64,000 bases of DNA from Euryarchaeota archaeon UBA88 (lineage in GTDB: Archaea > Thermoplasmatota > Poseidoniia > Poseidoniales > Poseidoniaceae). The stretch spans positions 6,911 through 70,910 of the forward strand of contig DAME01000025.1 in assembly GCA_002499545.1 (NCBI GenBank), written 5' to 3'. The notes beneath the pieces are model-generated. The model worked only from the letters and a program-made list of their open reading frames with translations, had not been told where the DNA came from and ran no database searches. Positions 4,278 through 45,792 of this stretch are shown in pieces; position 1 is the first letter of the stretch, and the number at the start of each line of letters is the position of its first letter. Made by a program: the position numbers and the translations under genes.

Positions 4278-4580
4278 GAGTGGGAGGGCCAATGGTGGAC
4301 GACCGTACTCTTTGGCCTAGCCCACATACTTCCTCCATCCCGATACCCCACAGCACCCATGGCTCCGAGTAGGGCTGCTCCGTTCCCGGCCTGACCTATT
4401 CCCCCGGTTATCCAGTTCCTGTTTCCCTCCGGAAACAGTTCATGACACCCGAGTCATGTGGGGGCGAGACATCAACGTCCGCGTGTAGAAACCAAAAAGC
4501 CGCTTTCGCCGCCCAAAGGCGTTCAGCCCACCGTAAAGACGATTTGTGGTACAGGGTACGCCTAGCTCCCCACCTATCCC
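4278..4580 (-). ncRNA. Signal recognition particle RNA (7S / SRP RNA); boundaries approximate (about 20 nt either way)
   Basis: The minus strand contains AGGUCAGGCCGGGAACGGAGCAGCC. This matches the universally conserved helix-8 (domain IV) motif of SRP RNA (E. coli 4.5S: AGGUCAGGUCCGGAAGGAAGCAGCC), including a GGAA tetraloop closed by CCG/CGG. An adjacent 8-bp hairpin CUGUUUCC-GGAG-GGAAACAG fits helix 6 with a GNAR loop. The interval is 345 nt with no credible protein and sits between the archease and CcmE-like genes. A TATA-like TTCAAATAT lies about 25 nt upstream of the proposed 5' GGGAUAGG. Confidence 0.5.
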
Positions 4581-4599
4581 ATTCAGGCCTGCACAAGGT

Positions 4600-10800: not shown

Positions 10801-11946
10801 ATGCCAAAATTACAACTTGAGCAGCGCGTACGTTACCCACCATTTGAGTCACACAGATTCAAGCCAACACAACTACCTATAGCCAGTGAAATTATCGTCA
10901 TCAAAAAAGGCACTATGAAGGAGATTGAGCAAACACTCAAACAACAAATGCCGGGTTTCACCCTCGGAAACGAGCAATCGTGGTTGGTCGAGCAGCGGTA
11001 CTTGGTTAACGATAAAATCTACGATGATTCAACCATCGTACGTAAGCAAAACATACGTGAATCCAGCAAAAAGCCACTCGCTGTAAAACAACAACGGCAA
11101 GGCTGGTACCTCACCCCGAATCCGATTCATGCTGGTGTTCGGAAGTTCATTTCAGGGGCTGTAGTCGTCCTCTTAGTGACGCTTGGTTATTTGTTCATCG
11201 AACCAGTACTTGCATCGATTGGGATTCCTGGAATTGGTACGAGCACTGTACGAATCGGCCTGCTTGATTATCCGATGCTTGCCGTACTTCTTATTCCGCT
11301 GTTGTTTTTTCCACTCATGTTGCGAGTGGCTGCTAACTTGAGTGACCTCCTACAGCAGCGTTTTTTCCTCAAATCATCGCCAAAAGATCCAATCGTGAAA
11401 CTTCTCGCAGAACCAGTGGCAGGAAAGCCGTTGGAATTTTCTATTGAGATGGAAGAGATTCGTGACGACTGGAGGAATATTTCAATTACTTGGAGGGTTG
11501 GTGCACTACCACCATCCCGCAGCAGCTTATTCAACGCCTTAGGTAGAACCATTTCAAAGCAACCGCCACCTGGCTTGACCACTGAATTACCGCATCATTG
11601 GGATGTCGGGTTGGATGACGGAACTGGTGGAGGAGAAGATGCTCCAATGGAAGACAGGGAAGTCAAGGGTGGATTGTTTCTCCGACCAATGCGTGCAATG
11701 GAATTTGGTGAAAAGAAAACCATTGCATCCGGAGCAATGAGTCTCAAGGAGCCCAGTCTCGATTGGCCGGGCACGATTTCCAGTGATCTCATACGGATTC
11801 ACTGGGAGATGATCGTATCGATTGAGCGCGAAACTAAAGGGAATTTACTTTGGGTTATGCCTATAGCTGTCAGCCATCAAACCCGAACGGCGAGTATCCC
11901 GGTGATCCCAACAAATGACGGTCGAACGGAATCTGACTCTGTTTGA
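10801..11946 (+). CDS. Hypothetical membrane protein
   Basis: 381-aa ORF with 2-3 predicted TM helices (VVVLLVTLGYLFIEPVLASIGIPGIG; LAVLLIPLLFFPLMLRV). No recognised family. Confidence 0.45.
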   Translation: MPKLQLEQRVRYPPFESHRFKPTQLPIASEIIVIKKGTMKEIEQTLKQQMPGFTLGNEQSWLVEQRYLVNDKIYDDSTIVRKQNIRESSKKPLAVKQQRQGWYLTPNPIHAGVRKFISGAVVVLLVTLGYLFIEPVLASIGIPGIGTSTVRIGLLDYPMLAVLLIPLLFFPLMLRVAANLSDLLQQRFFLKSSPKDPIVKLLAEPVAGKPLEFSIEMEEIRDDWRNISITWRVGALPPSRSSLFNALGRTISKQPPPGLTTELPHHWDVGLDDGTGGGEDAPMEDREVKGGLFLRPMRAMEFGEKKTIASGAMSLKEPSLDWPGTISSDLIRIHWEMIVSIERETKGNLLWVMPIAVSHQTRTASIPVIPTNDGRTESDSV

Positions 11947-11988: not shown

Positions 11989-14900
11989 ATGAGCAAGCGT
12001 ACCGTGACCGCTTTGATTCTCGTAGGTCTTATGTTCACATCAGGTTGCATGGGAGCAATTGAATCTGATTCGGATCTAACTGATGAACCAGAAATAGAAC
12101 TTGAATCCATTTCACTCACTGCAAGTTGGGAATTAGCACCTTCTCAAGGTCTGGTGAATGATGCACCGATTCAATTCAATGTTAAGATTCAAGCCACGGG
12201 TCAAGACTGGACCGCTTCGCCAATGATTATCTCGCCGAGCATTGAACTTGTAGCAGAATTTGAATGGGAAAAAACACCGCTCGGTTACACGCTTCAGTTG
12301 ACGCCAACTGAAATTGGTTCGTATCTTGTTCAGGTGGATTTTGCAACAACTAACGGAGCGGTATTCGCTCTCCCAATTCCTGAACCATTGACCCATACTC
12401 TGAATGTTACACCGGTTCAAGAACTCGCCCCAGTCCTGAGTGCACCTGTCGCGATTGAACTAAGTGAACCCACGATTATCTGGTTTGAAGGTAGTGTCAC
12501 CCATTCATCCATCACAACATGCACACTCGACTATTCGGTTAGGAATGGCGAAAGTGGAACTGTATTTGTACGGGATGACGGTACTTGGAAACGAATGATT
12601 GATTTTTCAGAATTAAGTGATTCTACTGCTATAACCACAACGGTAACCTGTGGAGAATTCACTGCACTCAGCGATACCGTGACAACCCAAATTTATCTTG
12701 ACAGTCCAGGCAACGACACAGATGGTGACGGTATCCTCGACCTGGTTGACCGTTGTATGGACGGTTATGGTGCCGAAGAAGGATGGGTATCGACTGATGA
12801 AAGTGATATCGACGGGGACGGTTGCAATGATTTCCATGAAGATCTGGACGACGATAATGACGGTGTTGGTGACGATTTTGATGAGTGCCCTGACTCTGTA
12901 GGTTGGGTGAGTACACCCTATGCTGACTATGATTCTGATGGGTGCCATGATGCTGATGAAGACCTTGACGATGATGGTGATGGGGTTCTTGATGAATTCG
13001 ATGATTGCCCGAGCGGACAACTTGGATGGGGTTCGAATTTTTACAGCGATCGAGATGGAGATGGATGTGCTGATTTAGACGAGGATTCTGATGACGACAA
13101 TGATGGATTAGAGGATGAACTGGATGCATGTCCAAGAGGTCAGAGCAACTGGTTCCGAAACACAAGCAGTGATTTTGATGATGATGGATGCGCTGACCAA
13201 TCGGAAGACGAGGACGATGACAACGACGGTGTCAACGATGTCAACATCACTGGCGACATGCTTGATCGATGCCCACGAACAGCACTTAACTCAACCGACG
13301 TAGATCAAAACGGCTGCTCAGCACTCCAGCGTGATACTGATCTTGATGGCGTTAATGATGCTCACGATCAGTGTGAGGGGACGCCTTCTGGATTGACGGT
13401 CAACGATGTAGGTTGTGCAGACTTGGACAACGATGGTGTGTATGCAAATGTTGACCAATGTCCTAATTCGCCTGAAAGATGGACCATTGAAATCGATGGG
13501 TGTGCTGTTATCCAGCAGCCTGTTGCTTGGAAAAGCAGTTCCCCATTGACTGGTCCGATGCAAATCGTTCCACAATTTTCTACACCAACGCTCAATGGAA
13601 CCTACTACTTCCAACAACGCTGGACTGGCTATGACGTCTACTTTTTCATGTTCAAATACACGGATGCAGATGGGAACGGAAATTCTGCAACATGGGGGCA
13701 AAACCCTGGCCCGTTCATTCGTTCGTTACCAGATAATGTTCACCTGTTCTATGGTTCGTTCGATACCACATACCACGCCGATATTCTAAATCGAAAGGCT
13801 GCGGTTGAAAATGCGCTGAACCCAAGTGAGGAAGATGCATGGGAAGGGCGAATACACTACATTGACCAACGTGCAAATGGCATCAATGGCGGGTTGGGGC
13901 AGATGATCTCCTCCTTCAACAGTCCGTTGTACATGGGCATCGACCGATTTCAAATGGCTCGGGAGACGGGTTCACTCTATGCTTGGACATCATCAAATAA
14001 CGACCCAATGCATCTCGTCCATGAGCCAAAGCAGTGGAATGCCGAATTCCCGGTAGAATCACGCAGACACGATAGCGGTATTCATGAAGTAAAACTCTGG
14101 GATTTTGACGCACACAGTGGGGGTTGGGGTGGAGGTTTTACCTCGGCCCAGACATCGATTTTACCTTCAAACATGTCTCAATTTGATACGATGGAAGTCT
14201 ACCATGAGCACGCATGCGAAGACAGAATGAACCGTCATACGAAAGCCGACGGTTCCACGGGTGGGTGCCATGAGTGGGATTATGAAGCCAATCTACGAAT
14301 TTGCGATCGAGCAAATGCATCATCGTGCGGAACAGAATTCATGAGGTGGATTACAACGTACGGTCGAGAAGGGAAATGGCTTACCGACATTTCACCCTAC
14401 CTTTTCATGCTGGAAGATGATGATAATCGAACCTTCAAGTATCGAGGAGCGAACAAGGGAGATCTGACAATCACCCTCTTACTCAGTAACTGGGGAAGTG
14501 GCTTGAGAGCTTCATCTGCAGATTTTGCCTTTACCGGCGGTCAGTTTGATGGAACGTACAACAACGAGTCAATGTATGACAGAAGCCTCAATTTTACCGT
14601 CCCCTCATGGGCGGAAAGAGTGGAGATTGTTGCCACGATAACAGGCCATGGATTCAATAAGGACAATGCCAATTGTGCAGAGTTTTGTGACCATCAACAC
14701 CATTACTACCTCAATGGATTCACGACTTATGAATGGCATCCATTGGTCTACTCCAATGAAGGATGTGAAAATGAAGTGAGTAACGGTGTGGTTGCCAATC
14801 AGTTCGGCTCATGGCCGTTTGGTCGCGCAGGCTGGTGTGCTGGTCAAGACGTCAAGCAATGGACATATGACATCACAAGTTGGAGCGACATGAGCGGTTC

Positions 14901-15030
14901 AGTCAACGAGCTTACCTACAGAGGATTGTTCAACGGTCAAGAATATCAACCATCTGATGGGATAGGAAACGGACAGCGTAACATACATGCGGAAATTTGG
15001 GTTGTGTATTACGCTGCCACTCTACAGTGA
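11989..15030 (+). CDS. Secreted/lipid-anchored acidic surface protein with TSP3 calcium-binding repeats and a C-terminal PNGase F-like peptide:N-glycanase domain
   Basis: Signal peptide plus lipobox-like LMFTSGC. At least 8 TSP3 repeats (DTDGDGILDLVDRC, DIDGDGCNDFHEDLDDDNDGVGDDFDECP...). The C-terminal roughly 300 aa align to Flavobacterium PNGase F: CHEWDYEANL vs CDEWDRYANV (Asp60), ITGHGFNKDNANCAEFC vs ISGWGHAKPYDAGSRGCAEWC (Glu206), GCENEV...FGRAGWCAG vs GCSANP...DRAGWCPG (Arg248/Trp251). The disulfide spacing is preserved. Confidence 0.8.
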   Translation: MSKRTVTALILVGLMFTSGCMGAIESDSDLTDEPEIELESISLTASWELAPSQGLVNDAPIQFNVKIQATGQDWTASPMIISPSIELVAEFEWEKTPLGYTLQLTPTEIGSYLVQVDFATTNGAVFALPIPEPLTHTLNVTPVQELAPVLSAPVAIELSEPTIIWFEGSVTHSSITTCTLDYSVRNGESGTVFVRDDGTWKRMIDFSELSDSTAITTTVTCGEFTALSDTVTTQIYLDSPGNDTDGDGILDLVDRCMDGYGAEEGWVSTDESDIDGDGCNDFHEDLDDDNDGVGDDFDECPDSVGWVSTPYADYDSDGCHDADEDLDDDGDGVLDEFDDCPSGQLGWGSNFYSDRDGDGCADLDEDSDDDNDGLEDELDACPRGQSNWFRNTSSDFDDDGCADQSEDEDDDNDGVNDVNITGDMLDRCPRTALNSTDVDQNGCSALQRDTDLDGVNDAHDQCEGTPSGLTVNDVGCADLDNDGVYANVDQCPNSPERWTIEIDGCAVIQQPVAWKSSSPLTGPMQIVPQFSTPTLNGTYYFQQRWTGYDVYFFMFKYTDADGNGNSATWGQNPGPFIRSLPDNVHLFYGSFDTTYHADILNRKAAVENALNPSEEDAWEGRIHYIDQRANGINGGLGQMISSFNSPLYMGIDRFQMARETGSLYAWTSSNNDPMHLVHEPKQWNAEFPVESRRHDSGIHEVKLWDFDAHSGGWGGGFTSAQTSILPSNMSQFDTMEVYHEHACEDRMNRHTKADGSTGGCHEWDYEANLRICDRANASSCGTEFMRWITTYGREGKWLTDISPYLFMLEDDDNRTFKYRGANKGDLTITLLLSNWGSGLRASSADFAFTGGQFDGTYNNESMYDRSLNFTVPSWAERVEIVATITGHGFNKDNANCAEFCDHQHHYYLNGFTTYEWHPLVYSNEGCENEVSNGVVANQFGSWPFGRAGWCAGQDVKQWTYDITSWSDMSGSVNELTYRGLFNGQEYQPSDGIGNGQRNIHAEIWVVYYAATLQ

Positions 15031-17651: not shown

Positions 17652-19274
17652 TTACAATTTTGCATCGTGGGAATCATCCTTGGACGGCTCAATGCGGTTC
17701 CACTTAGGAATACTGTTTGCAGCAGATTGGCTCATCGTCCTTCGAACAAAGAAAATCAAACCTACCAGTGCCCCCAATGCAACCAGACTGAACACCATGT
17801 TGGAGGTCGTTATGCGAGAACTTGCTCCAGCAGCCTCTTCGATACGCAGTGTGAACGCAAGAGAAGATGTTTCGTCATCATCGTCAGAGACGACCAAGCG
17901 GACATCATAGGCCCCCGGACTGGAAAAGTCTGAATGATTGAGAGAGGATTTTCCCGTGACATAGATTTGATCATTGATGTACCATGAACACATGATGTCG
18001 GAAGCATCATTCTGGGTATCTGTGCTCCCATCACAGTTGAGGTCCCATTCACTACCGGATACGGTTGAAATCAATGTCCCGTCACTCACTGTCAGCCCGT
18101 CAAGTTGAATTGCGGGTGACGGTGCTTGGTTGACTACTAAGAATTCATAACTCGTTCGAATCAGGCGACCAACTGAATCGCGAATCAAAAGTTCGACCGA
18201 CCAGGTACCGCTCAATGACGGTTGCAACATGATTTCGGAGTCTGAAAGTTGTTGAGATTCCAAAACAGAATGACGACTACCATCGGGCTGTACGACCGTC
18301 CATGTAAGTTCCATCGAACCACCATCATACCCTTCTATCACGGTACTCGAAAAGGACACGTTTGTAGATTCGAATACGGATTCTATGGTCGAATTCTGTG
18401 ATTCAAGGTCGACTACTCCGTTGGTTTCAGATTGAAAAACGATTTCCACATCTGGCAGAGAGCGGTCAATGTGGAAGGTTAATGTTTGAGATTCAGAAGT
18501 GCGCAGAAGCGAATCAAGAACGTAGATTTTAAGCAACCAAAATCCGTCTGGAAGTGATATTGATTCCGGAGTGAATTCTACATCCCAACCTTGTTCACTT
18601 GGGGTTTGCGAAAAATCAGTGAATTGAGAGAAGGCTTCACGGCAGATACCGAACGGGGCGGGGCATATTTCCATTCGTACTTGGGATTCGATATCGGTAT
18701 GTGGTGCAAAGACCACTGGAACGAACACTTGGGATACGTCGTTCATCACGACGATTCGGTTATTTTTGAAAGGCAAAAGAACAGGCCGGTGATGGTTGAA
18801 CGAATCATCGGAATCTATTGAATCATGGACTTGGATTTCTCCGAGATAGACGATGAGGGAAAACAAGGGTAAGTCAGTACTGTTGACTGCATCCAATGCA
18901 AAGAGACATGTACACTTGATGGCAGTAACATTCAATTCCACATCCCAGTGCCACGAATCCTCTGAAGTAGCTTCGACGTTTGTAAGGTATCCTGTTTCAA
19001 GCGCAACAGGTTGTTCATCGATGGTTGATAGATTGTAAAGAGTCCACATCGTATTTGACAGAGGGATTTCTGAGCTTCCGTTGAGGAACATTTCGGAGGA
19101 AAATGAAGAACCTGTGGTTTGATGAACGGTAACGAGGGATTCCTCAGAAATGGGTTTGTGATGCTTAGCATCTACCAGTCCTGACAAGGTCGGCATCAAA
19201 AAACAGGCCAACATGAGGATAACACAGAACTTGTTGGTCATTCCCATGACCGAGTGTGCGTTCCATTCAAACAT
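17652..19274 (-). CDS. Secreted surface protein with Ig/PKD-like beta domains and a C-terminal TM anchor plus basic tail
   Basis: N-terminal signal peptide (MTNKFCVILMLACFLMPTLSG). A C-terminal hydrophobic helix VFSLVALGALVGLIFFV is followed by RRTMSQ... Ser/Thr/Asp-rich. 540 aa. Confidence 0.68.
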   Translation of the reverse strand: MFEWNAHSVMGMTNKFCVILMLACFLMPTLSGLVDAKHHKPISEESLVTVHQTTGSSFSSEMFLNGSSEIPLSNTMWTLYNLSTIDEQPVALETGYLTNVEATSEDSWHWDVELNVTAIKCTCLFALDAVNSTDLPLFSLIVYLGEIQVHDSIDSDDSFNHHRPVLLPFKNNRIVVMNDVSQVFVPVVFAPHTDIESQVRMEICPAPFGICREAFSQFTDFSQTPSEQGWDVEFTPESISLPDGFWLLKIYVLDSLLRTSESQTLTFHIDRSLPDVEIVFQSETNGVVDLESQNSTIESVFESTNVSFSSTVIEGYDGGSMELTWTVVQPDGSRHSVLESQQLSDSEIMLQPSLSGTWSVELLIRDSVGRLIRTSYEFLVVNQAPSPAIQLDGLTVSDGTLISTVSGSEWDLNCDGSTDTQNDASDIMCSWYINDQIYVTGKSSLNHSDFSSPGAYDVRLVVSDDDDETSSLAFTLRIEEAAGASSRITTSNMVFSLVALGALVGLIFFVRRTMSQSAANSIPKWNRIEPSKDDSHDAKL

Positions 19275-19298: not shown

Positions 19299-22200
19299 TT
19301 ATTGGGCAAACGGATCGCAGAGTTCCCCTTGTCCTGGGAAACTTGTAGGATTGCGGGGATTGGTATCCCACTTGAATTCACAATAATTCACGTGGCCGTC
19401 TCCATCTGTGTCAATCATCCGATCAGCAGGGTCAAACGGATCGAATTGGAAGTGATATTCCCATCCAGTTGCCATACCATCGTCATCATGGTCTTGATAG
19501 TAGACTTCCGGACCATCATTCCAACCGTCACCATCGGTGTCGTTGGTGATTGGGCTGGTGCCGTTTTGCTTCTCTTCCAAGTTGGTATAATTTTCTAAGT
19601 TATCGTAAAACCGTTTTCCATCAGGTGTATCGGGGTCAATATTGCAGTCGGAATTCGTTGTATCATTGTAACCGGAGCAATATTTGCGAATCAGTCCAGT
19701 ACGGTTAAGCCCGTCAGTGTCGGGGTCTTCGTCACCGTCCATGATACCGTCAAGGTCGCTGTCGGGCATGGAAGGGTCCATCACGCCACGAGCGCCGTAA
19801 GCGTCGATTGAGGAATTGTCCACCAGTCCGCTATCCAAAGCAAGTCCGGAGTAGTACACTTCCCATCCATCAGGTAATTGGTCACCATCGGTATCGTCAT
19901 CGACTGGGTTCGTGTTCCACTTGTCAGGTGCTTCAGCCCCATTCGCCAATGAATCGTTATCGATATCAAACGTGTCATCTTTCATCGAACCAAGTGATGG
20001 GTCAAGAGCCCAACGTCCATTGCAGGCACAGAAGTTATTGACGGGAATTGAAAAACCAGTGAGATTCATTTCCGAAACAGCATATTTTTTCTCTACGATG
20101 AAACCGCCCAAGTTATTTTGCCAAACGTAACCACCGGCTTCCATCGAGCAATCGTTGTTTTGTGAGGGGACGCATCCAGGACGTTCCCAGGATGATGTTG
20201 CGACCCAAAGACTGTGGGAATTCGTGTTGTCTTCCGACGATTTTACCTGCATCTCCCAACCGTCAAGCATCCCATCGGAATCGGTATCGTTCTGCAGTGG
20301 ATTGGTTGGATTTTGGAACGGTCGTGGTACGAACAAGACTTCATTTCCGTCAAGAAGACTATCGTTATCTGTATCAGAGTTGTTTGCGTGGGTAAGGAAG
20401 TTATCTTTCCCAGCAATGACTTCTTCTCCATCTTCAAGACCGTCGTTGTCGGTATCAAACATACAAGGACTGGTGAAGTATGATTCACCCTCCCATGTAT
20501 AGCCTGTGAGGGCTTCTATTTGGTCAAGTTCACCATCGCCATCAGTATCCGGATTTGAAGCATTGGAACCTCCAGCACACACTGAAGCGAATTCCATGTA
20601 ATCCGATAAGCCATCTTCATCGGTGTCAAAGAGTCCTGGGTCTGATGTAACCCAGGTCTTGATAACACCGTTATTCACGACGAGAATTTCCCAACCCATC
20701 ACTTCAATTCCATCAAGAAGTCCATCACCGTCAGTGTCTGGATTCAGTGGATTGGTTGAACGACCATCTATCACTCCGTCATTGTCGCGGTCTCGTGCGT
20801 TGTATTCCATGAGGTTCGTGAATTGTTCTTCAGGTTCTACAATTTGCATCCAGCTAAAGAGACGGGACTCGACGGCCTGTCCGAGAGTAACATCAATCGA
20901 ATAAACATAGCCGGCAACTGGCGCAATCATGGCGACAGTTTGCTTCTGACCACCTGCCAGGGTGATTTGGCCACGAGCGACAGTGGAGTTTGCTTCAACC
21001 CACTGGTCTTCAATCACATCAATTCCGATAACGATGGTTGTTGACTCAAGTGTAGAATAGAAGACTCCACCATCTCCATCAACGTCCCAACCGTCTCGAT
21101 CAGGATCGAGGTTGCCGTTAGCACCATCACGGGGGTGAAGCCCGTTAGTTGATTCCCATCCATCTGGCATACCATCTTGGTCAGTATCGAGCCTCCACGG
21201 GGATGTGAAGTTCGTAGGGCCAAATGTGTTCGCAACGAGGTATTCTTCGAAGTTGTTCAGTCCATCTTCATCCCAGTCACCGTATCCGTCGGATGCGTTT
21301 GAGGGATTCAAAACCTTGAGTGCATCGTTCTGCGGTTGGTCATTCACGTTGGAGTAACAAAATTCGAATCCATCCGGCATACCGTCACCGTCGGTGTCCC
21401 AGTCGGATGGTCCGTTGAGTAAACCATCACCGTCCATGTCCATGAGGAACCAAGAGTTTTCAACACCAGAAAACGGAGCTAAGCGTGAAATTGGATCGAG
21501 AAGAGGTGTGTTGCAGTCTTCTCCAACCCCCGTGCTAAGAACGACGGAATCCAAGCCTACTTCGACAATGTCGTCGAGCAAATCCATGTCCGAATCACGA
21601 GCGTTAGGGTTGGTGCCAAAGAGTTCTTCCTGGAAGTTTGGAAGACCGTCTTCATCCGTGTCCAGAATCATATCACAGGAGTGCGAGCCTTGCGAATTGG
21701 CGAGTTCAGACCATGAAGGCAGCACGCCTTCAGCGTCATCATAAAAACTGGAGAGAGTATCTTCCATTGCTTGGTCAAGAAGAAGGCAATCCCAATTTCC
21801 GTTGAGTGGATCGAAGAGGGTAACTTCGCCTCCAGGAGTTTGTACAACCATTGTATACATCGATTCCCAGCGGTCGTTGAGATTGTCATTGTCAGTATCC
21901 GCACGTTGAGGATCGGTGCCGAGTTCTTGCTCGACTTGGTTGGTTAACCCGTCATTATCAGGATCGCCGTTTGGTCCTTGTTCAGGGTCTGGCCAAGAAT
22001 CAGTTTCGTTTTCGATGTTAGCATCGTCGGTTTGATCTGCTTGAGAAGGATCTTGAATGATATCTTCTGATTCACCGTTATCAAGTGGATTGAGGCCGTG
22101 TTCAACTTCCCATCCATCACTCATACCGTCGTTATCCGTATCGGGTTTATCGGGGTCAGTGCCGTACTGAGTCGATTCAAGAGTATCTGAAAGACCGTCC

Positions 22201-22430
22201 CCATCTGAATCTAAACCCGCACCGATTGCCGTACCAGAACCTATCAAATCCTCTTCAGCAGCACTTTCGTATCCACCAATCGATTCACTCGTTTGGAAAT
22301 ATCCTGAAAAACCCACAAAGAGAGAGCCGAAAATCAAGGTAGAAATGATTGCAGCATAGGCCATTTGGTTGTGACTTAAGGACATTTGACTCACCGTGCA
22401 CATCAGTGCAGTCTCTCCGACTTCGTACAT
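19299..22430 (-). CDS. Giant acidic surface protein built from bacterial-type thrombospondin type-3 (TSP3) calcium-binding repeats
   Basis: 1043 aa. N-terminal signal anchor, then more than 15 repeats of D-x-D-x-D-G-[LM]-x-D-G-[WE]-E, for example DSDGDGLSDTLES, DTDNDGMSDGWEVEHGLNPLD and DTDQDGMPDGWESTNGLHP. Very low pI. Alternative start Mets at 22385 and 22361. Confidence 0.75.
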   Translation of the reverse strand: MYEVGETALMCTVSQMSLSHNQMAYAAIISTLIFGSLFVGFSGYFQTSESIGGYESAAEEDLIGSGTAIGAGLDSDGDGLSDTLESTQYGTDPDKPDTDNDGMSDGWEVEHGLNPLDNGESEDIIQDPSQADQTDDANIENETDSWPDPEQGPNGDPDNDGLTNQVEQELGTDPQRADTDNDNLNDRWESMYTMVVQTPGGEVTLFDPLNGNWDCLLLDQAMEDTLSSFYDDAEGVLPSWSELANSQGSHSCDMILDTDEDGLPNFQEELFGTNPNARDSDMDLLDDIVEVGLDSVVLSTGVGEDCNTPLLDPISRLAPFSGVENSWFLMDMDGDGLLNGPSDWDTDGDGMPDGFEFCYSNVNDQPQNDALKVLNPSNASDGYGDWDEDGLNNFEEYLVANTFGPTNFTSPWRLDTDQDGMPDGWESTNGLHPRDGANGNLDPDRDGWDVDGDGGVFYSTLESTTIVIGIDVIEDQWVEANSTVARGQITLAGGQKQTVAMIAPVAGYVYSIDVTLGQAVESRLFSWMQIVEPEEQFTNLMEYNARDRDNDGVIDGRSTNPLNPDTDGDGLLDGIEVMGWEILVVNNGVIKTWVTSDPGLFDTDEDGLSDYMEFASVCAGGSNASNPDTDGDGELDQIEALTGYTWEGESYFTSPCMFDTDNDGLEDGEEVIAGKDNFLTHANNSDTDNDSLLDGNEVLFVPRPFQNPTNPLQNDTDSDGMLDGWEMQVKSSEDNTNSHSLWVATSSWERPGCVPSQNNDCSMEAGGYVWQNNLGGFIVEKKYAVSEMNLTGFSIPVNNFCACNGRWALDPSLGSMKDDTFDIDNDSLANGAEAPDKWNTNPVDDDTDGDQLPDGWEVYYSGLALDSGLVDNSSIDAYGARGVMDPSMPDSDLDGIMDGDEDPDTDGLNRTGLIRKYCSGYNDTTNSDCNIDPDTPDGKRFYDNLENYTNLEEKQNGTSPITNDTDGDGWNDGPEVYYQDHDDDGMATGWEYHFQFDPFDPADRMIDTDGDGHVNYCEFKWDTNPRNPTSFPGQGELCDPFAQ

Positions 22431-24945: not shown

Positions 24946-27900
24946 TTAGTCGAAAGAAAGGTACTCATCATCAGATTCACGAGTTGAAGATTTGCTTTGT
25001 GGACGAACGTTGGGTCCGGGACGTTTCGAACCAACGGTTATGTTGGAATTCGGCGAACTCTTTTTTCTGTTTGGTCGCTCCGATACACGAGTGTTGGTCG
25101 GAATTCCACGCTGACTGAGGTTAATCTCAGCCACTGAACGCGACTTACTGGATACCGGTCGTCCTTTGGCGCTCGCTTTACCTGACTTCTTGGCGATGTA
25201 TTGTGGACGACCGCGATAAGCAACCGCTCCAATGAGACGCTCGAGGGCCGGAATTTCAGCTCCTTCCTCCTTTGGACGCTTCAGCCACCAACCTTCTCCC
25301 AAAGGTTGAAGTCGAGGTGGTCGAGATTTAGCCATTGACTTCGCTTGGCGTTTGAGTCGCATCTTCACCGATTTCTCAGAGTCACGCGGCAATCGCTCTG
25401 TCATCCAACCAGGCAAACCGATGTCGAGTACTACTCCGTTGACAGTGACCAACATTCCTGAGAGCAAGAGGTGAGTGCCCACTGGGATATTGGCACGTTC
25501 TGGTTGGACTTTGAAACGCTTCATTCTCTTCGCATACGATACCATTGCCTTTTGATCTCTGTGCCGAATGACGCGTTTCTGCTGTTTCGAAAATCGTCTT
25601 CCAGCGATCTGGATCATGAGCAGCGTGACGACCACTACAACACCCTGCGCTTCCCCGACTTCTTGGGACACATATATTCCCAACACAAACCAGATTGGAA
25701 TGAGTACTAAAAGATGGAAAATTCGATTCAAGATGCTCGGCCGATATATTGGTGGCATTCCTCTTCGAGACGCCTCATGTGAAGCGATCAATACGTTGGC
25801 ATTGAGCGCTTCATCAAGTCCACCACGAACCATCAATCCCGCAATCGCATTCACAGGTGCAGAATTAATCCATTTGCGCATTTTTTTGCCGGTTCCAACG
25901 GCTAATGCAACTTCCATTTCTTCCTCATCGACGACTTGTCCAAGGATACTGCTCAACGCCATTACTCGAGGGTCTTGACCATCACTTTCCTTGAGTTCAG
26001 CGAGAATAGAACGAGCACTGTGCCAATCACCCTTATCGATTAAACAAAGCGCAGCAGCAATACGTGGACGAACCCCAGTCGGCTCATCTCGAACGAGTTT
26101 TAATGACAATTCAAGGGCATCATCATGTTGGCGTTGGGCTCGAAGAAGTGAAATCATGGAGAGACGAGATACCCGTGTCAGCCTGTCCTTGTGAATGGAT
26201 TCCTCTGAGGGAGAAGGTTGCCACCCACGCAACATTCGCATCAGGTCTTGTAAATGATCAATACAGGAATTGTTTTCCCAGTCCCAGAAATCATCTTCAG
26301 TAACCATTCCTTGCCAAGGATCGAGCCATTCGCAAACGAAAGCAAGTAATTCGGGTTCGTCGTATCCCTCGGCTTGCTGTAAACCGTGCAGCGCTTCACG
26401 CGCAGCGTCGAGGCGGCGAGAAGCCATGTAACCCACAGCAATCAACATTCGAGCTATGTCATCATCACCGCCAGCTTGTGCGAGAACTTTTCGAGCTTCT
26501 TCTATGGCTTTAGGCCAAAGTCCACGAACAGCAAGTTCCCACATGTGGGCGCGAGCTTTTTCGTGACGAACTAAAGATGGATCTCCCTCAATCGAGCGGC
26601 GCTGGAATTGTATTAGACCATCGAGATCTTCAGAGATTGCTGCTTCGTCAACCAAGGCACGCATCCAATCACCGCCAGCAAATTTGACTGCACCTTCACG
26701 ACGTTCATCCGGATTTAAATCGAAACGAAGGTTGAGAAGCGGTGAATATCGAATGATTGAAAGTAGCCAGGTGAACAAAAAGATGGCTTGGCCAAAAGCA
26801 ATGAACATCCACGTGGTTAAAAGACGATTACCTTCATTGAAACCAACGTCTTCAAGCCATGGTGTAAAGGGCATTAAATCTCCAAATTCCTTGTAGCATA
26901 CGAGAACCAACAACAGTACCGTATAGCCTGAAAAACCAGCGAAAGCGAATTTCAATTGTCTCGCCTGCGCATCGACTTCTGTTCGAATCTCACGAGGCGA
27001 ATCCAGGGTGACACCGAACATCCCACCAAAACTTTGACCACCGAGAACCAAGTTTCGAGTTAACTCAAAAATGAACGCAAGCCCTACAATTGCAATGTTC
27101 ATGGAAAGATAGAGCGATAAAAATTGTGGGAGGGATTTGATGAACTGCCAGTGGAAGAGAAGTTCAGAAATGATGTCAATTCTCTGGTAGATTGAATGAC
27201 CAATGATGCCGCCAAAATTCAGCACTTCTTCGGCATTTTCTGGCCTGTTAAATAAGACGTAAAACACCGTGACAATACCGTTGAGGGCGGTGATTGGCAT
27301 CGTCAGCAAAAAGAGTACTAAAATCAGTGAAAACAATCGGTTCAAGAAACCTGGCTTGTTCGGATCAATCGGATTTGGTCTACCATTGGAAGTTCTCCAT
27401 TTATTGATTAGCAGCATATTCCAAGAAGCTCCCATGATTCTTCCGTACGCCATGATGGTTGGTGCCATGAATGTCAACATACCTGCTGCAAGCCAAATCG
27501 GAGTTAGTGTCCCGTCCCCTGTTGTTTGAAGTCCGTACAGAAGAGTAGCAAACGTAGCACCAACAAGAAGCGCCATTGTGATGATTCGACGTAGGAAATT
27601 AGTTATTCTTTGACTCTTGACTTTCGATTTACTCATGCCCAAGAGCTGGGCATTGAGAGTTTCCCATGGCGAAATGAGAACAGGAATTGCAATCAAAATT
27701 CCAATGATGTAAAGGTTCGGTTTGAAGTAGATTTCCGGGTCAAATAAAAGTTCTGTAATCAAGAGAAGAACACCCGTCATCCCCATCATGTACAGGCCTA
27801 TTCCAATCGTCACTGAACCTTCTTTTAACAGATTACGAGCGTCAGATGCGCTACCCGTAATACGATGAACTTCGTATAAGTCATCATCGATCTCGAAGGC

Positions 27901-28104
27901 GACTTGAAGGTTCGCTAGCTGGCTTGGAATGAACCAGCGCCAAACTGGAATTGCAATGCAGATAGCAACCAACAGAGGGAAAAAGTATTCTGGCTCGAGT
28001 GCACTAACATCTGCAACTTCATTAGCCGAAACGGTGTGAAGGAAGAAAAGAGAAAAAAATGTTGTTAGGAGGACGACTCGAAATCTGCGAACTCCGTTGC
28101 CCAT
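24946..28104 (-). CDS. Large polytopic membrane protein with a cytoplasmic TPR-like helical-repeat region and a long basic Ser/Lys/Arg-rich C-terminal tail
   Basis: 1052 aa with more than 12 predicted TM helices. A central helical-repeat region (AIEEARKVLAQAGGDDDIARMLIAVGYMASRRLDAAREAL...) is followed by a C-terminal 200 aa rich in K/R/S/P. No family recognised. Confidence 0.6.
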   Translation of the reverse strand: MGNGVRRFRVVLLTTFFSLFFLHTVSANEVADVSALEPEYFFPLLVAICIAIPVWRWFIPSQLANLQVAFEIDDDLYEVHRITGSASDARNLLKEGSVTIGIGLYMMGMTGVLLLITELLFDPEIYFKPNLYIIGILIAIPVLISPWETLNAQLLGMSKSKVKSQRITNFLRRIITMALLVGATFATLLYGLQTTGDGTLTPIWLAAGMLTFMAPTIMAYGRIMGASWNMLLINKWRTSNGRPNPIDPNKPGFLNRLFSLILVLFLLTMPITALNGIVTVFYVLFNRPENAEEVLNFGGIIGHSIYQRIDIISELLFHWQFIKSLPQFLSLYLSMNIAIVGLAFIFELTRNLVLGGQSFGGMFGVTLDSPREIRTEVDAQARQLKFAFAGFSGYTVLLLVLVCYKEFGDLMPFTPWLEDVGFNEGNRLLTTWMFIAFGQAIFLFTWLLSIIRYSPLLNLRFDLNPDERREGAVKFAGGDWMRALVDEAAISEDLDGLIQFQRRSIEGDPSLVRHEKARAHMWELAVRGLWPKAIEEARKVLAQAGGDDDIARMLIAVGYMASRRLDAAREALHGLQQAEGYDEPELLAFVCEWLDPWQGMVTEDDFWDWENNSCIDHLQDLMRMLRGWQPSPSEESIHKDRLTRVSRLSMISLLRAQRQHDDALELSLKLVRDEPTGVRPRIAAALCLIDKGDWHSARSILAELKESDGQDPRVMALSSILGQVVDEEEMEVALAVGTGKKMRKWINSAPVNAIAGLMVRGGLDEALNANVLIASHEASRRGMPPIYRPSILNRIFHLLVLIPIWFVLGIYVSQEVGEAQGVVVVVTLLMIQIAGRRFSKQQKRVIRHRDQKAMVSYAKRMKRFKVQPERANIPVGTHLLLSGMLVTVNGVVLDIGLPGWMTERLPRDSEKSVKMRLKRQAKSMAKSRPPRLQPLGEGWWLKRPKEEGAEIPALERLIGAVAYRGRPQYIAKKSGKASAKGRPVSSKSRSVAEINLSQRGIPTNTRVSERPNRKKSSPNSNITVGSKRPGPNVRPQSKSSTRESDDEYLSFD

Positions 28105-29932: not shown

Positions 29933-32900
29933 TTACCAAGCATCAACAACTTCATCCATCAAGGCAGCATCTAAAACATCGATATCAATCGATTTTGGTT
30001 TGCCGAGACCGAGCCGCTTTGCCATAGCATTGCGACCGCTGACAGCCCCCAGACCCGCTTTTTCAAGCGTCACGAAAATTGCTGGGAGCAAAATTAACGC
30101 ACTAGCAGCAGCAACCCACAAGAGAATCAATATGACTGTGATGAACGGTTTGATTTCCGGAATAGGAATATTGTACGCTGTTAGCATACCCAGCGTCGTT
30201 ACCACTGCAGCCTCAAACAACGACATTCCCGTGCCAATGGCTGCGCTACGAATGGCTTCGATTCCTCCACCTAGTTCGCGTATGCGGTTCGCTATGTGAA
30301 TCGAGAAATCGACACCCACACCAACCAAAATCGACCCAATCATAACCGTTACCAGTGAAAGCGGTACATCGAGTTGCCACATAACGAGCCACTGCATTGC
30401 AACGGTCGCTATAACGGGGGAAGTGGTCCATATGGAGTATTTGATGTCCTTGAAAACAATTGCCAGAGTAATCAGTGTTAAGATGAGTGCGAAACCAAGT
30501 GAAGTCCACTGTGAACTAACGATCAGCGTGTTCACTTCAATTGAAGTTGAAGCTACACCAGTGAGTTTGGTTGCTTCATTACCCGGGTCACTGTTTCCTA
30601 CAAATGTTGCAGTGTACTTGTTGATTTCATCGACGCTTTGCGACGTGTCTGCAACCGGTAGATATGGCATATCAACGTAAATCAAACTTCGATCGTAATC
30701 CTCGCTGATGAAAATTTCTCGAGTTTCATCAGTAATCGATGAGTAAAACACGTTTAAGAGGAAAATCTCAGACTGCCGCGAAGCAGGAAGGCCATACGAA
30801 CCCGGGGAGGTTAGCAAGTCCCAGAATGATGCATCCTGTGTGAGGGAGTTGTCGAGTAGTACTGCCGCAGTATCCTTGATATCCTCGGGCAAACCGGGTA
30901 TGGCCTGGACAAATTCGTTGAGCCCAGCACCCGATACCGTTGGAGCGATACCGGCTGATTTCATCAAAAATACAATCGATACAGCAGTCGTATTATCTAC
31001 ACCGTTGAGCAATCCCTCAAGAGAATCAATCGCCTGCAAATTCTGTGCTGGGTCCTGCTGACTTGCTTCAAGCGAGGTCACCCCCGTAAGGTTGGCTTTA
31101 ATTAGAACCATTCCTAACTGTCCGGATTCAAATTCGTCGCTGTACTGCTTCATCTTGATGACCGAGGGTTCTCCTTCAGGTGCCATTCCAAGCATGTCGA
31201 TGTTCTCCTCTACATTGGCCTGACCAATTGTTGCAGAGAAGAGGATCAGAACGGCAAACACACCGATGACGGCTTTGTTGTACTTTACAGGAGCTTGAAC
31301 GAGGGTTTCGAAAACTTTGAGTGGAGGATGTTTCGGTTTCCGAAGGTCCAACAACAGCGTGAGATTTGGAACCATGAACATTGTCAATATGTAGACGACA
31401 ACAATACCGCCTGAAAGTGCGATTCCAACTGTCTGAATGGGAGCCATTGGAGTGAATACCAGCGAAATAAAACCAATGACCGTAGTCACAGCAGATAAGA
31501 AAACTGCTCGACCGGTTGAGGAAAGAGCACCACGCATTTTTTCTGATTTGGTTCCACCTTCTTCCGCATATCGATTGGTAATATGGAGACCGTACGAAAC
31601 GCCAAGCGCTAACAGAATCGGCCCGACAATGATAACCGTCATGGTCACCTCATAATTCGTCCAACCAATGATGCCAAGTGTCCAAAAGACAGCACATAAA
31701 GTCGGCAATCCTGCGATGATAACAACTTTCAATCCCTGGAGTGGTCGAATACCCGTCAAACCTGCTTGGAAAAAGTCACAGTGGAATACGAAGAGTCCAA
31801 TGGCCACCAATACGACGGCAAGAGGGAAAATCTCCCAGAACAAGCGGAATGAAAACTCTGTAACTGCATTCGTGATTGGTACAGGACCTGTGAGGGTCAT
31901 ACTTAGACCCAAATCCGACCACGTACAGCGCTCTGGGCCGGCTGGATTTCCATTTGTATCGAACTCACATGCACGTTCCTCTTTGGAAATCTGATCGAGA
32001 AGTTCCTGCGTTGTGAGGATAATCTCCTTCGCATCTTTGTCCTCTCGGACAGCGACTGCCATTATCGCACGGTCGAGAAGTCCATCAGGCGAATCATCTT
32101 CAGAACCGTTGATGTCGCGTGCCAATTTATCGAGACCCGGTGTCGGTGAACCATCGTCGTCGTACATCTCGCCAATCACCAAATCAATGGTGGTCTGTGA
32201 TGGAATGTCATAGCCGCCTTCGAGTGCAGCGGTTGTATTATCCAGCAGTTCATTCAGCGCATCGCCCATTTGTTCAGTTAAGCAATCCTCTGATGCTCCA
32301 CATCCAAGTTGTGCAATTTGGTCAACAAACGCAGTACGCACACGAGGAGCACTGGAGTTCACTTCCTTTAGAACGGTCGATATAGAAAGGATGTAAATGA
32401 CGTCATCCTCAACCCCCGGGCTCACTTCGCCAACATACGAGAGTTTCGGATTGAGAATAGTCTCAACATAACTGATTTCTTGTAAAATACGTTGGTCGGT
32501 GATATTGCGCCCACCAAATGATTCAATGTAAACCACCATGACGTTCGTCGACCAGTCTTGCTCAACCTCCCCAAGCAACGCTCCAACTTCACTTCCCTCA
32601 GGAAGATACACTTCTAAGTCCCCGTTAACGTTCAGTGCGGGATTGTTGACATCGTCATCAAATTGAGTGAGATAGCGGTCAAAGAATCCAGACTGCCCAA
32701 CGAAAAAGGCAGTGAGCATCAAAAAAAGTATGACGGTTGGTAGAGGGTAACGGGTAATTGCACCGGTTGCTCCATGTTTCTGCCACTCTCGCTTGAATCG
32801 AACTGGAGCGTCCAAAACTGCGTCAATTGCATCTTTGGGCTTGAATTCCTTGACTCGAGCTGAAAGGTCTACAGCACTGGTACGAATTTGTTTTTTACCA

Positions 32901-45593: not shown

Positions 45594-45665
45594 GCCACCG
45601 TGGCTTAGCGGTATAGCACCTCATTGGTAATGAGGAGGTCGCGAGTTCAATTCTCGCCGGTGGCT
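45594..45665 (+). tRNA. tRNA-Thr(GGU): tRNA-Thr (anticodon GGU)
   Basis: Hand-folded cloverleaf: acceptor GCCACCG/CGGUGGC, D-loop AGCGGUA, anticodon stem CCUCA/UGAGG with loop UUGGUAA, T-arm GCGAG-UUCAAUU-CUCGC, discriminator U. No intron and no encoded CCA. Confidence 0.85.
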
Positions 45666-45709
45666 CTTCCTCTGCGACGCAGCATGCACACTGCTCAAAG
45701 ATGTTGAGG

Positions 45710-45792
45710 CGCCGAGAGAGAGATTTGAACTCCCGAGGGACAGGCCCACGCGATTTCCAGTCGCGCGCACTACCAGGCTATGCGATCTCGGC
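45710..45792 (-). tRNA. tRNA-Ser(GGA): tRNA-Ser (anticodon GGA) with long variable arm
   Basis: Acceptor GCCGAGA/UCUCGGC, 3-bp D-stem with long D-loop, anticodon stem CGCGA/UCGCG with loop CUGGAAA, 14-nt variable arm UGGGCCUGUCCCUC, T-arm GGGAG-UUCAAAU-CUCUC, discriminator G. A TATA-like TTTAAC lies about 29 nt upstream. Confidence 0.85.

What the first reader, a model, noticed from the sequence alone, without database searches (positions are those of the whole stretch)
13570..15030. PNGase F-like peptide:N-glycanase domain fused to a TSP3-repeat surface lipoprotein in an archaeon
The C-terminal roughly 300 aa of the 1013-aa protein align motif-for-motif with Flavobacterium PNGase F. CHEWD matches CDEWD (catalytic Asp60), NCAEFC matches GCAEWC (Glu206 inside the C204-C208 disulfide), and GC-x23-GRAGWCAG matches GC-x20-DRAGWCPG (Arg248, Trp251, and the C231-C252 disulfide). 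All three catalytic residues are therefore conserved. PNGase F homologues are rare outside a few bacterial phyla. An archaeal, surface-tethered version on a calcium-binding TSP3 stalk would be an extracellular protein-deglycosylating enzyme, which fits a heterotroph feeding on glycoproteins. The 200 aa between the TSP3 repeats and the PNGase-like domain (WTGYDVYFFMFKYTDADGNGN...) match nothing I recognise; they could be a carbohydrate-binding or bowl-like N-domain.
Basis: partly seen in the sequence, partly recalled or inferred. Interest (0 to 1): 0.72.

Follow-up and report, generated by a model that had tools for sequence, protein, structure and literature searches.

The report
Surface-anchored PNGase of marine archaea
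A 1013-residue predicted cell-surface lipoprotein of a Marine Group II (Poseidoniales) archaeon ends in a confidently identified PNGase F-type enzyme module that should strip N-linked sugar chains off proteins; the gene is conserved across this abundant ocean archaeal order, but no one has tested its activity.

Summary
ORF 11989..15030 (+) encodes a 1013-aa protein whose C-terminal ~315 aa are a PNGase F-type domain:
- Pfam N-glycanase_C, E 5.8e-20.
- Family profile against PNGase F 1PNF, E 2e-21 over residues 5-289.

The equivalents of Asp60, Glu206, Tyr85, Arg248, Trp59 and Trp251, and all eight cysteines of the domain, are invariant in 70 archaeal orthologues.

Upstream lie a conserved lipobox signal, a fast-evolving all-β region and about 12 thrombospondin-type-3-like calcium-binding motifs.

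The host is archaeal: the window holds an archaeal SRP RNA. The gene sits in the same housekeeping gene order in all 80 retrieved Poseidoniales genome loci, as far as each contig extends.

Databases already label it "peptide-N-glycosidase F-related", but no paper in the searched library discusses it. Sugar-contact residues Glu118 and Trp120 are not kept, so glycan specificity is open.

Verdict: a real, solid, new member of a known kind, of moderate interest.

The parts
11989..15030 (+). Whole gene: 1013-aa predicted surface lipoprotein carrying an Ngly2-type PNGase module
   Evidence: ORF. The exact protein is found on 15 public contigs, including a Tara Oceans scaffold and NCBI genome assemblies. 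Full-length orthologues of about 1000 aa occur in Poseidoniales genomes.
11989..12048 (+). Signal peptide with lipobox-like end (MSKRTVTALILVGLMFTSG|C; Cys20)
   Evidence: Read directly from the sequence. Cys20 is kept in 69 of 70 orthologues. Of 69 orthologues, 51 fit the strict lipobox [LVI][ASTVI][GAS]C and 11 a relaxed form. This copy has Thr at position -3. Lipidation itself is inferred.
12049..12708 (+). Variable N-region (aa 21-240), probably two beta-sandwich domains
   Evidence: Only 27% mean identity among orthologues. No homologues by word-indexed search. The AF2 model is all-beta but of low confidence, pLDDT 60.7. Foldseek gives only generic Ig/FnIII/cadherin matches.
12709..13503 (+). 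TSP type-3-like calcium-binding repeat stalk (aa 241-505; 12 DxDxDG motifs, 14 Cys, 32% Asp+Glu)
   Evidence: Motifs and composition. Matches thrombospondin-2 type-3 repeats at E 1.4e-3. NCBIfam MtsC thrombospondin-3 model at E 1.2e-7, below its cut-off. Pfam TSP_3 below its cut-off. 92 invariant positions among 70 orthologues.
13561..13995 (+). Cysteine-free thioredoxin-like domain (aa ~525-669)
14005..14064 (+). [quoted passage not shown]
   Evidence: Helix H169-188 in the model. Ngly2 has a helical linker in the same place (PMC12753239).
14083..14544 (+). PNGase F-type N-terminal beta-sandwich (aa 699-852), with W763-D764 (= Trp59-Asp60), Y791 (= Tyr85), and Cys pairs C743/C760 and C772/C780
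14545..15027 (+). PNGase F-type C-terminal beta-sandwich (aa 853-1013), with H887, C896-E898-C900 (= Cys204-Glu206-Cys208) and C926...R946-W949-C950 (= Cys231...Arg248-Trp251-Cys252)
   Evidence: Pfam PF09113 at E 5.8e-20 over aa 862-977. Direct phmmer match to 1PNF at E 3.6e-4. All listed residues are invariant.

Best explanation
The gene encodes an extracellular, membrane-tethered peptide:N-glycanase of the PNGase F superfamily, of the Ngly2-like subtype, in a Marine Group II (Poseidoniales) archaeon.

Shown here:
- The C-terminal 490 aa fold as a cysteine-free thioredoxin-like domain, a linker helix and two jelly-roll beta-sandwiches that superpose on zebrafish Ngly2 and on PNGase F.
- The catalytic Asp/Glu pair (D764, E898), the surrounding Tyr791, Arg946, Trp763 and Trp949, and eight cysteines are invariant.

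Inferred steps:
1. A Sec signal peptide ending in a lipobox is cleaved, and Cys20 is lipid-modified. This anchors the protein on the outer face of the membrane.
2. Two variable beta-sandwich domains and about 265 aa of calcium-binding TSP3-like repeats form a disulfide-braced stalk that holds the enzyme away from the cell.
3. The PNGase domain hydrolyses the amide bond between Asn and the core GlcNAc of N-glycoproteins or glycopeptides. This releases the intact glycan and ammonia and leaves Asp in the peptide.
4. Stripping glycans makes phytoplankton-derived glycoproteins accessible to the peptidases on which these proteolytic archaea depend.

The PA domain that narrows the Ngly2 cleft is absent, so the active site is probably open as in PNGase F. 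By analogy with Ngly2, the Tx-like domain may mediate dimerisation.
For: Family membership:
- Pfam PF09113, 71.9 bits.
- phmmer to 9LWG, E 9e-38, and to 1PNF, E 3.6e-4.
- Profile A1 to 9LWG, E 1e-101 spanning the Tx-like and PNGase parts; to 1PNF, E 2e-21 over residues 5-289.

Structure:
- AF2 model with pLDDT 91.9 and pTM 0.91.
- Foldseek TM 0.80 to 9LWG and 0.73 to PNGase F.

Conservation and inheritance:
- Catalytic and disulfide residues are invariant in 66 diverse homologues and in 70 archaeal orthologues.
- Asp421 and Glu555 of Ngly2, the residues aligned here, abolish activity when mutated (PMC12753239).
- The lipobox Cys is conserved in 69 of 70 orthologues, and the protein has no C-terminal anchor.
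- The gene is present in 80 Poseidoniales genome loci at 56-83% identity and always in the same gene order, so it is long-retained and under purifying selection.

Context:
- Archaeal SRP RNA in the window.
- Rinke et al. infer a proteolytic lifestyle for all Poseidoniales genera (PMC6461757).
- Lipobox proteins are common in Euryarchaeota and have dedicated lipidation enzymes (PMC12462473).
Against: - No activity has been measured for any member of the PA-less Tx+PNGase subfamily.
- Pfam N-glycanase_N (PF09112) does not hit.
- Sugar-contact residues of PNGase F are not kept. Glu118 aligns to R819, which is variable. Trp120 (and Ngly2 Trp480, whose Ala mutant is nearly inactive) lies in a loop insertion that this family lacks. 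Arg61 is Tyr765 and Trp191 is His887.
- The neighbourhood is housekeeping, with no glycoside hydrolases or sugar transporters, so context gives no support for a glycan-use pathway.
- Lipidation has not been shown in Poseidoniales, and this copy's lipobox has Thr at position -3.
- Active-site geometry could not be measured, because model coordinates are not exposed.
Confidence: 0.75

Rival explanations
1. It is an active amidase of the PNGase F fold, but with a glycan specificity different from PNGase F and Ngly2. Candidates are prokaryotic (archaeal or bacterial) N-glycans without a canonical chitobiose-beta-mannose core, or heavily modified algal cores. The reason is that the second-GlcNAc/beta-Man subsite has been rebuilt.
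For: Glu118 aligns to the variable R819. The Trp120/Trp480 loop is deleted across the whole Tx+PNGase family profile. Arg61 is Tyr and Trp191 is His. A family-specific invariant Trp713 in a 'GGW' loop has no counterpart in PNGase F or Ngly2. Ngly2 W480A is nearly inactive (PMC12753239), so losing that Trp should matter.
Against: The residues around the scissile amide and the first GlcNAc (W763, D764, Y791, E898, R946, W949) are all kept. PNGases of this fold tolerate wide glycan variation. Loop alignments at about 20% identity are uncertain, and another aromatic residue may fill the same space.
Confidence: 0.2
2. It has the same chemistry but acts on the cell's own surface. It would trim or recycle N-glycans of the archaeon's own S-layer and surface glycoproteins, for envelope remodelling or turnover, rather than attacking exogenous food proteins.
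For: The enzyme is tethered to its own membrane. The gene sits among housekeeping genes in a fixed order across all 80 retrieved loci, as a core cell-biology gene would. Archaeal surface proteins are commonly N-glycosylated (general knowledge), and the protein itself has 11 sequons.
Against: A long stalk of about 480 aa that projects the enzyme outward suits capture of external substrates. The closest non-archaeal relatives in the rough tree include Myxococcota-labelled proteins with lipobox-like N-termini, and myxobacteria degrade macromolecules (general knowledge). The second TSP3-stalk protein in the window carries a serine hydrolase domain, which suggests a displayed hydrolase set.
Confidence: 0.12
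3. It is a non-catalytic adhesin. The PNGase-like module would act only as a glycan-binding, lectin-like head on a thrombospondin-type adhesion stalk. This is in line with the published reading of MGII 'thrombospondin genes' as adhesion factors.
For: Rinke et al. interpret the TSP genes of Poseidoniales as adhesion proteins (PMC6461757). The TSP3 repeats and Ig-like domains are typical of adhesins.
Against: Both residues that are essential in PNGase F and Ngly2 (Asp and Glu), and the whole active-site shell, are 100% invariant over 70 archaeal orthologues and 66 wider family members. This is not expected for a binding-only module. The PNGase domains are the most conserved part of the protein, at 70-73% mean identity against 27% for the N-region.
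Confidence: 0.05

Closest known systems
Zebrafish Ngly2, acid PNGase (PDB 9LWG; Honda et al., J Biol Chem 2025, PMC12753239)
   Different: No PA domain is inserted in the Tx-like domain. Ngly2 His422 is Tyr765 here, and the Trp480 loop is deleted. Ngly2 is a soluble lysosomal enzyme of animals with an acidic pH optimum. This protein is a predicted lipid-anchored surface protein of a seawater archaeon, with an added ~480-aa N-region and TSP3 stalk. Ngly2 falls outside the archaeal and bacterial clades in a rough NJ tree.
PNGase F of Elizabethkingia meningoseptica (PDB 1PNF/1PNG/1PGS)
   Different: Only about 21% identity. PNGase F is a free 314-aa secreted enzyme with no Tx-like domain. Glu118, Trp120, Arg61 and Trp191 are not conserved here. 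The C51-C56 loop is 16 residues here instead of 4. Pfam's N-domain model does not detect this protein.
Non-archaeal 'peptide-N-glycosidase F-related' proteins (hits labelled Myxococcota, Vulgatibacter, Sandaracinus and Bradymonadia)
   Same: The same Tx-like + PNGase module without a PA domain, at 30-38% identity over 95-99% of the 509-aa query. Many start with a lipobox-like signal. A 33-member clade that includes the Myxococcota- and Vulgatibacter-labelled hits is the sister group of the archaeal clade in a rough NJ tree.
   Different: These proteins are about 550-750 aa, and the module follows the signal almost directly. They have no Ig-like N-region and no TSP3 repeats. None has been characterised experimentally as far as the searched literature shows, and most carry no taxonomic label.
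Thrombospondin type-3 repeat proteins (thrombospondin-2, PDB 1YO8/2RHP; bacterial MtsC)
   Same: Tandem DxDxDGxxDxxDxC(P) calcium-binding motifs with regularly spaced cysteines. They align to thrombospondin-2 repeats in register and to the MtsC model.
   Different: Scores are below the curated thresholds. Here the repeats seem to serve as a spacer that displays an enzyme, not as part of a thrombospondin signature domain.

Membership tests
PNGase F superfamily (Pfam PF09112 + PF09113) | C-terminal domain matches Pfam N-glycanase_C above the gathering score | tested here: met
   71.9 bits against a cut-off of 25, E 5.8e-20, aa 862-977.
PNGase F superfamily (Pfam PF09112 + PF09113) | N-terminal domain matches Pfam N-glycanase_N (PF09112) | tested here: not met
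PNGase F superfamily (Pfam PF09112 + PF09113) | Two consecutive eight-stranded antiparallel jelly-roll beta-sandwiches | tested here: met
PNGase F superfamily (Pfam PF09112 + PF09113) | Catalytic Asp60 and Glu206 equivalents | tested here: met
   D764 and E898 align to Asp60 and Glu206. They are invariant in 66 + 70 sequences.
PNGase F superfamily (Pfam PF09112 + PF09113) | Active-site shell (Trp59, Tyr85, Arg248, Trp251) and the three disulfides | tested here: met
   W763, Y791, R946 and W949, and the pairs C743/C760, C896/C900 and C926/C950, are all aligned and invariant. Disulfide formation is inferred.
PNGase F superfamily (Pfam PF09112 + PF09113) | Chitobiose-contact residues Arg61, Glu118, Trp120 and Trp191 | tested here: not met
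   Y765, the variable R819, a deleted loop and H887, respectively.
PNGase F superfamily (Pfam PF09112 + PF09113) | Peptide:N-glycanase activity (EC 3.5.1.52) | not testable with these tools
   Needs a recombinant enzyme assay.
Ngly2-type PNGase (Tx-like + PA + PNGase) | Thioredoxin-like domain lacking CxxC, N-terminal to the PNGase domain and joined by a helix | tested here: met
Ngly2-type PNGase (Tx-like + PA + PNGase) | Protease-associated (PA) domain inserted in the Tx-like domain | tested here: not met
   The Ngly2 segment of about 140 residues appears as an insertion relative to this family. No PF02225 hit. Other hits in the search do carry PF02225.
Ngly2-type PNGase (Tx-like + PA + PNGase) | His422, His546 and Trp480 near the active site | tested here: inconclusive
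   The H546 equivalent H887 is invariant. H422 is Tyr765. The Trp480 loop is absent.
Ngly2-type PNGase (Tx-like + PA + PNGase) | Homodimer through the Tx-like domain; acidic pH optimum | not testable with these tools
   No multimer prediction or biochemistry is available.
Thrombospondin type-3 repeats | Pfam TSP_3 or TSP3_bac above threshold | tested here: not met
   TSP_3 scores 10.8 bits against 25, E 0.41; there is no TSP3_bac hit.
Thrombospondin type-3 repeats | Tandem DxDxDGxxDxxDxC calcium-binding motifs | tested here: met
   12 DxDxDG motifs, five with the full motif. In-register alignment to thrombospondin-2 at E 1.4e-3. 92 invariant positions across orthologues. Calcium binding is inferred.
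Lipobox lipoprotein | Signal peptide ending in [LVI][ASTVI][GAS]C | tested here: inconclusive
   This copy reads F-T-S-G-C, with Thr at position -3. Of 69 orthologues, 51 fit strictly and 11 in relaxed form. The Cys is kept in 69 of 70.
Lipobox lipoprotein | Lipid modification of the Cys by an archaeal AliA/AliB-type pathway | not tested
   AliA and AliB are described in Haloferax (PMC12462473). Their presence in Poseidoniales was not examined.

The most novel reading that the evidence does not exclude
This may be the first PNGase F-type N-glycanase of the domain Archaea. It would form a conserved surface deglycosylation step by which the ocean's most abundant planktonic archaea unlock N-glycoproteins. 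Its sugar subsite is rebuilt: there is no Glu118 or Trp120/Trp480 equivalent, and a family-specific 'GGW' loop is present. That would give it a glycan specificity unlike any characterised PNGase, for example for algal or prokaryotic N-glycan cores.
Probability: 0.25. Interest if true: 0.7.

Novelty: new member of a known kind. Interest (0 to 1): 0.45.

Why it matters
Marine Group II archaea are uncultured but among the most abundant microbes of the surface ocean, and they are thought to live on proteins and peptides. A glycan-stripping enzyme displayed on a stalk and conserved in every retrieved genome locus would be a concrete, testable step in how they attack glycosylated phytoplankton proteins. 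That step also releases ammonia and free glycans.

It would also be the first PNGase F-type enzyme assigned to Archaea in the searched literature. It shows that the Tx-like + PNGase architecture recently solved in fish Ngly2 is widespread in prokaryotes. It also suggests that some of the "thrombospondin adhesion genes" reported for this order are enzyme-display proteins.

The module is small, disulfide-rich and simple to express, so it could be a new glycoanalytical reagent if its specificity differs from that of PNGase F.

Tried and rejected
- **Carbohydrate-binding or bowl-like N-domain for aa ~506-720.** Rejected: the fold is thioredoxin-like and is homologous to the Ngly2 Tx-like domain.
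- **Redox function of that domain.** Rejected: it has no cysteine.
- **PA domain as in Ngly2.** Absent.
- **Recent horizontal acquisition or a genomic island.** Rejected: base composition is flat and gene order is identical in all 80 retrieved loci, as far as each contig extends.
- **NCBIfam.** It gave no specific family, only weak sub-threshold TSP3 and other hits.
- **Homologue search with the N-region (aa 21-241).** Nothing found. Its AF2 model is poor (pLDDT 60.7), and the fold matches are only generic Ig-like.
- **Bacterial-type promoter and terminator scan.** No excess over shuffles, and not applicable to an archaeon.
- **AFDB fold search.** Unavailable.
- **Model coordinates.** Not exposed, so the Asp/Glu/Arg geometry could not be measured.
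- **Literature searches linking PNGase F-type enzymes to MGII, Poseidoniales, Euryarchaeota or archaea.** Nothing relevant. The phrase "archaeal PNGase" in the literature refers to the unrelated transglutaminase-fold (NGLY1/Rad4) family.
- **Functional partners in the neighbourhood.** None was found. It holds DHODH, topoisomerase I, a geranylgeranyl-reductase-like FAD enzyme, an Mqn radical-SAM enzyme, an Xaa-Pro aminopeptidase and SHMT.
Full report
**1. Observation**

The window carries an ORF at 11989..15030 on the + strand that encodes 1013 aa.

The finding's coordinates, 13570-15030, correspond to residues 528-1013.

Pfam detects N-glycanase_C (PF09113) at E 5.8e-20, 71.9 bits against a cut-off of 25, over residues 862-977. 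Pfam does not detect N-glycanase_N, and it scores TSP_3 below threshold.

A direct phmmer search of solved structures gives PNGase F (1PNF/1PGS/3PMS) at E about 4e-4. A much better hit is 9LWG_A at E 9e-38, covering residues 721-994.

**2. What the C-terminal half is**

9LWG is zebrafish Ngly2, the long-sought animal acid PNGase. [quoted passage not shown] Its Asp421 and Glu555 are essential for activity (PMC12753239).

I aligned residues 505-1013 with 65 homologues found in a 5.8-billion-protein search. The resulting profile matches as follows:
- 9LWG at E 1e-101, from the Tx-like domain to the C-terminus, with the Ngly2 PA domain appearing as an insertion that this family lacks.
- PNGase F 1PNF at E 2.3e-21 over residues 5-289, so both beta-sandwiches are covered.
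- A thioredoxin-fold protein (Blr1131), weakly, with its N-terminal part.

AlphaFold2 on this alignment gives a confident model, with mean pLDDT 91.9 and pTM 0.91.
- Foldseek gives TM 0.80 to 9LWG (normalised to the query) and 0.73 to PNGase F (normalised to the target). It also matches Bcp1 and peroxiredoxins for the upstream domain.

There is no cysteine between residues 506 and 742, so this domain is not redox-active, just as in Ngly2.

**3. Residue-level check**

The HMMER alignments give these correspondences to PNGase F:

| This protein | PNGase F |
|---|---|
| W763-D764-Y765 | Trp59-Asp60-Arg61 |
| Y791 | Tyr85 |
| G886-H887-G888 | Gly190-Trp191-Gly192 |
| C896-A-E898-F-C900 | Cys204-Ala-Glu206-Trp-Cys208 |
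| C926 ... R946-A-G-W949-C950 | Cys231 ... Arg248-Ala-Gly-Trp251-Cys252 |
| C743/C760 | Cys51/Cys56, with a longer loop |

- An extra pair, C772/C780, is shared with Ngly2 only.
- W763, D764, Y791, H887, E898, R946, W949 and all eight cysteines are invariant in the 66-sequence family alignment. They are also invariant in 70 full-length archaeal orthologues.

Some sugar-contact residues are not conserved:
- Glu118 aligns to R819, which varies freely (R/Q/K/A/G).
- Trp120 of PNGase F and Trp480 of Ngly2 both sit in a 3-4-residue loop insertion that the family lacks. The Ngly2 W480A mutant retains only feeble activity.
- Arg61 is Tyr here (94% of archaeal orthologues).
- Trp191 is His, as in Ngly2 His546.
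- A family-specific invariant Trp713, in a 'GGW' loop, has no counterpart in either solved enzyme.

**4. The rest of the protein**

*Signal and lipobox.* The N-terminus, MSKRTVTALILVGLMFTSGC, is a signal peptide ending in a lipobox-like motif.
- The Cys is kept in 69 of 70 orthologues.
- 51 of 69 orthologues fit the strict bacterial-type lipobox, mostly LSGC or LAGC.
- This copy has Thr at position -3.
- Lipobox proteins are common in Euryarchaeota, and their lipidation enzymes AliA and AliB were recently identified in Haloferax (PMC12462473).
- There is no C-terminal anchor; the chain ends with the last beta-strand of the PNGase domain.

*N-region.* Residues 21-240 evolve fast, with 27% mean identity among orthologues. 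They have no detectable relatives in the word-indexed search. They model poorly, as two beta-sandwiches (pLDDT 60.7), with only generic Ig/FnIII/cadherin matches.

*Repeat region.* Residues 241-505 hold 12 DxDxDG motifs, 14 cysteines and 32% acidic residues. They align in register to the type-3 repeats of thrombospondin-2 at E 1.4e-3 and to the MtsC thrombospondin-3 model at E 1.2e-7, below its cut-off. There are 92 invariant positions among orthologues.

**5. Host, distribution and history**

- The window contains an archaeal SRP RNA and two tRNAs. Otherwise it holds housekeeping genes: topoisomerase I, DHODH, tRNA synthetases, RtcB and SHMT.
- A scan of one genome per GTDB species found at least 485 relatives. 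The best 80 are all Poseidoniales (Marine Group II) genomes, at 56-83% identity over the 509-aa module.
- In every locus long enough to see, the gene order is the same: DHODH(-), TopoI(+), GGR-like(+), a 381-aa membrane protein(+), PNGase(+), Mqn radical-SAM(-), Xaa-Pro aminopeptidase(-), PKD protein(-), 1043-aa TSP3 protein(-).
- The gene is therefore an old, vertically inherited part of the Poseidoniales genomes sampled here, and not an island.
- The exact protein occurs on 15 public contigs, including a Tara Oceans scaffold and NCBI genome assemblies, and is pre-annotated with PF09113.
- NCBI already names relatives [quoted passage not shown].
- An exhaustive HMMER search of 1.84 billion cluster representatives finds 2,466 relatives at E <= 0.001 and 556 at E <= 1e-30. 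The family is not rare.
- The non-archaeal relatives are about 550-750 aa, carry no TSP3 repeats and often begin with a lipobox-like signal. Those with a taxonomic label are Myxococcota, Vulgatibacter, Sandaracinus or Bradymonadia.
- In a rough neighbour-joining tree without support values, all TSP3-bearing sequences form one clade. It is sister to a 33-member clade that includes the Myxococcota- and Vulgatibacter-labelled hits, and Ngly2 lies outside both.

**6. Mechanism proposed**

Shown: the fold, the domain order, the conservation of the catalytic constellation, the conserved lipobox Cys, and the conserved repeat stalk.

Inferred:
- export and lipid anchoring at Cys20;
- a calcium-stiffened, disulfide-braced stalk that projects the enzyme from the cell;
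- hydrolysis of the Asn-GlcNAc amide of N-glycoproteins or glycopeptides, which releases the glycan and ammonia and converts Asn to Asp;
- an open active site, because the PA lid of Ngly2 is missing;
- possibly dimerisation through the Tx-like domain, as in Ngly2.

The likely role is to strip glycans from exogenous, phytoplankton-derived glycoproteins so that peptidases can digest them. This is consistent with the proteolytic lifestyle inferred for all Poseidoniales genera (PMC6461757).

Rivals:
- a PNGase with a different glycan specificity, because of the rebuilt sugar subsite;
- a self-directed role in remodelling the cell's own envelope glycoproteins;
- a purely adhesive, non-catalytic head, which is unlikely given the complete invariance of the catalytic residues.

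**7. Comparison with what is known, and novelty**

The protein works like, and is a member of, the PNGase F superfamily. Within it, it belongs with the Ngly2-like Tx+PNGase group but lacks the PA domain. It fails the membership features 'PF09112 HMM hit', 'Glu118/Trp120/Arg61/Trp191' and 'PA domain', and it meets all the others that were testable.

The Ngly2 paper mentions bacterial orthologues but not archaea. No paper in the searchable library connects PNGase F-type enzymes with MGII, Poseidoniales or archaea. Rinke et al. treated the 'thrombospondin genes' of the order as adhesion factors.

The finding is real and well supported, and it is already labelled in sequence databases. In the searched literature it has been neither studied nor discussed. 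I rate it a new member of a known kind, with moderate interest of 0.45. It is not surprising in mechanism, but it is directly testable and ecologically relevant.

Noticed in passing
window 54148..57045 (+): A 965-aa protein with an N-terminal signal or TM segment, four TSP3 repeats (Pfam TSP_3, 2e-14), an FSH1-type serine hydrolase domain (4e-13), a YHYH domain (3e-30) and a C-terminal TM anchor. It is a second 'enzyme on a TSP3 stalk' in the same window. This suggests that MGII 'thrombospondin' genes are partly enzyme-display proteins rather than adhesins only.
   Followed up: partly
window 19299..22430 (-): A 1043-aa protein with 22 DxDxDG motifs (Pfam TSP3_bac, 6e-17) and no other recognised domain. 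It is 57-88% identical across 60 Poseidoniales loci, which makes it more conserved than the PNGase gene and always syntenic with it. Function unknown.
   Followed up: partly
window 10801..11946 (+): A 381-aa predicted membrane protein with no Pfam hit. It ends 42 bp upstream of the PNGase gene, is co-oriented with it, and is syntenic in 69 of 80 loci at 32-63% identity. It is a possible operon partner of unknown role.
   Followed up: partly
window 13855-13857, 13942-13947, 13960-13962, 14044-14046 (codons of H623, D652-R653, R658, E686): The cysteine-free thioredoxin-like domain carries polar residues that are invariant across the whole family: H623, D652, R658, G661 and E686. Only H623 and D652 are shared with zebrafish Ngly2. 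Their role (domain interface or part of the peptide cleft) is unexplained.
   Followed up: no
window 17652..19274 (-): A 540-aa protein with a weak PKD-domain match and a C-terminal TM anchor. It is syntenic but poorly conserved, at 21-37% identity, and is another variable surface protein in the cluster.
   Followed up: no
window 4278..4584 (-) and 45594..45792: An archaeal SRP RNA (134.6 bits) and two adjacent, divergently oriented tRNA genes. They were useful for assigning the window to an archaeon.
   Followed up: yes
window 24946..28104 (-) and 29933..33028 (-): Two further proteins of about 1050 aa. One has an N-terminal signal-like segment and a TPR_19 repeat. The other is an MMPL/RND-type transporter with a sterol-sensing-like domain.
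   Followed up: no
hits P0102-P0119: A subset of homologues carries a PA domain (PF02225) together with PF09113, like animal Ngly2. Most carry no taxonomic label. They could mark the prokaryotic source of the animal Ngly2 architecture.
   Followed up: no
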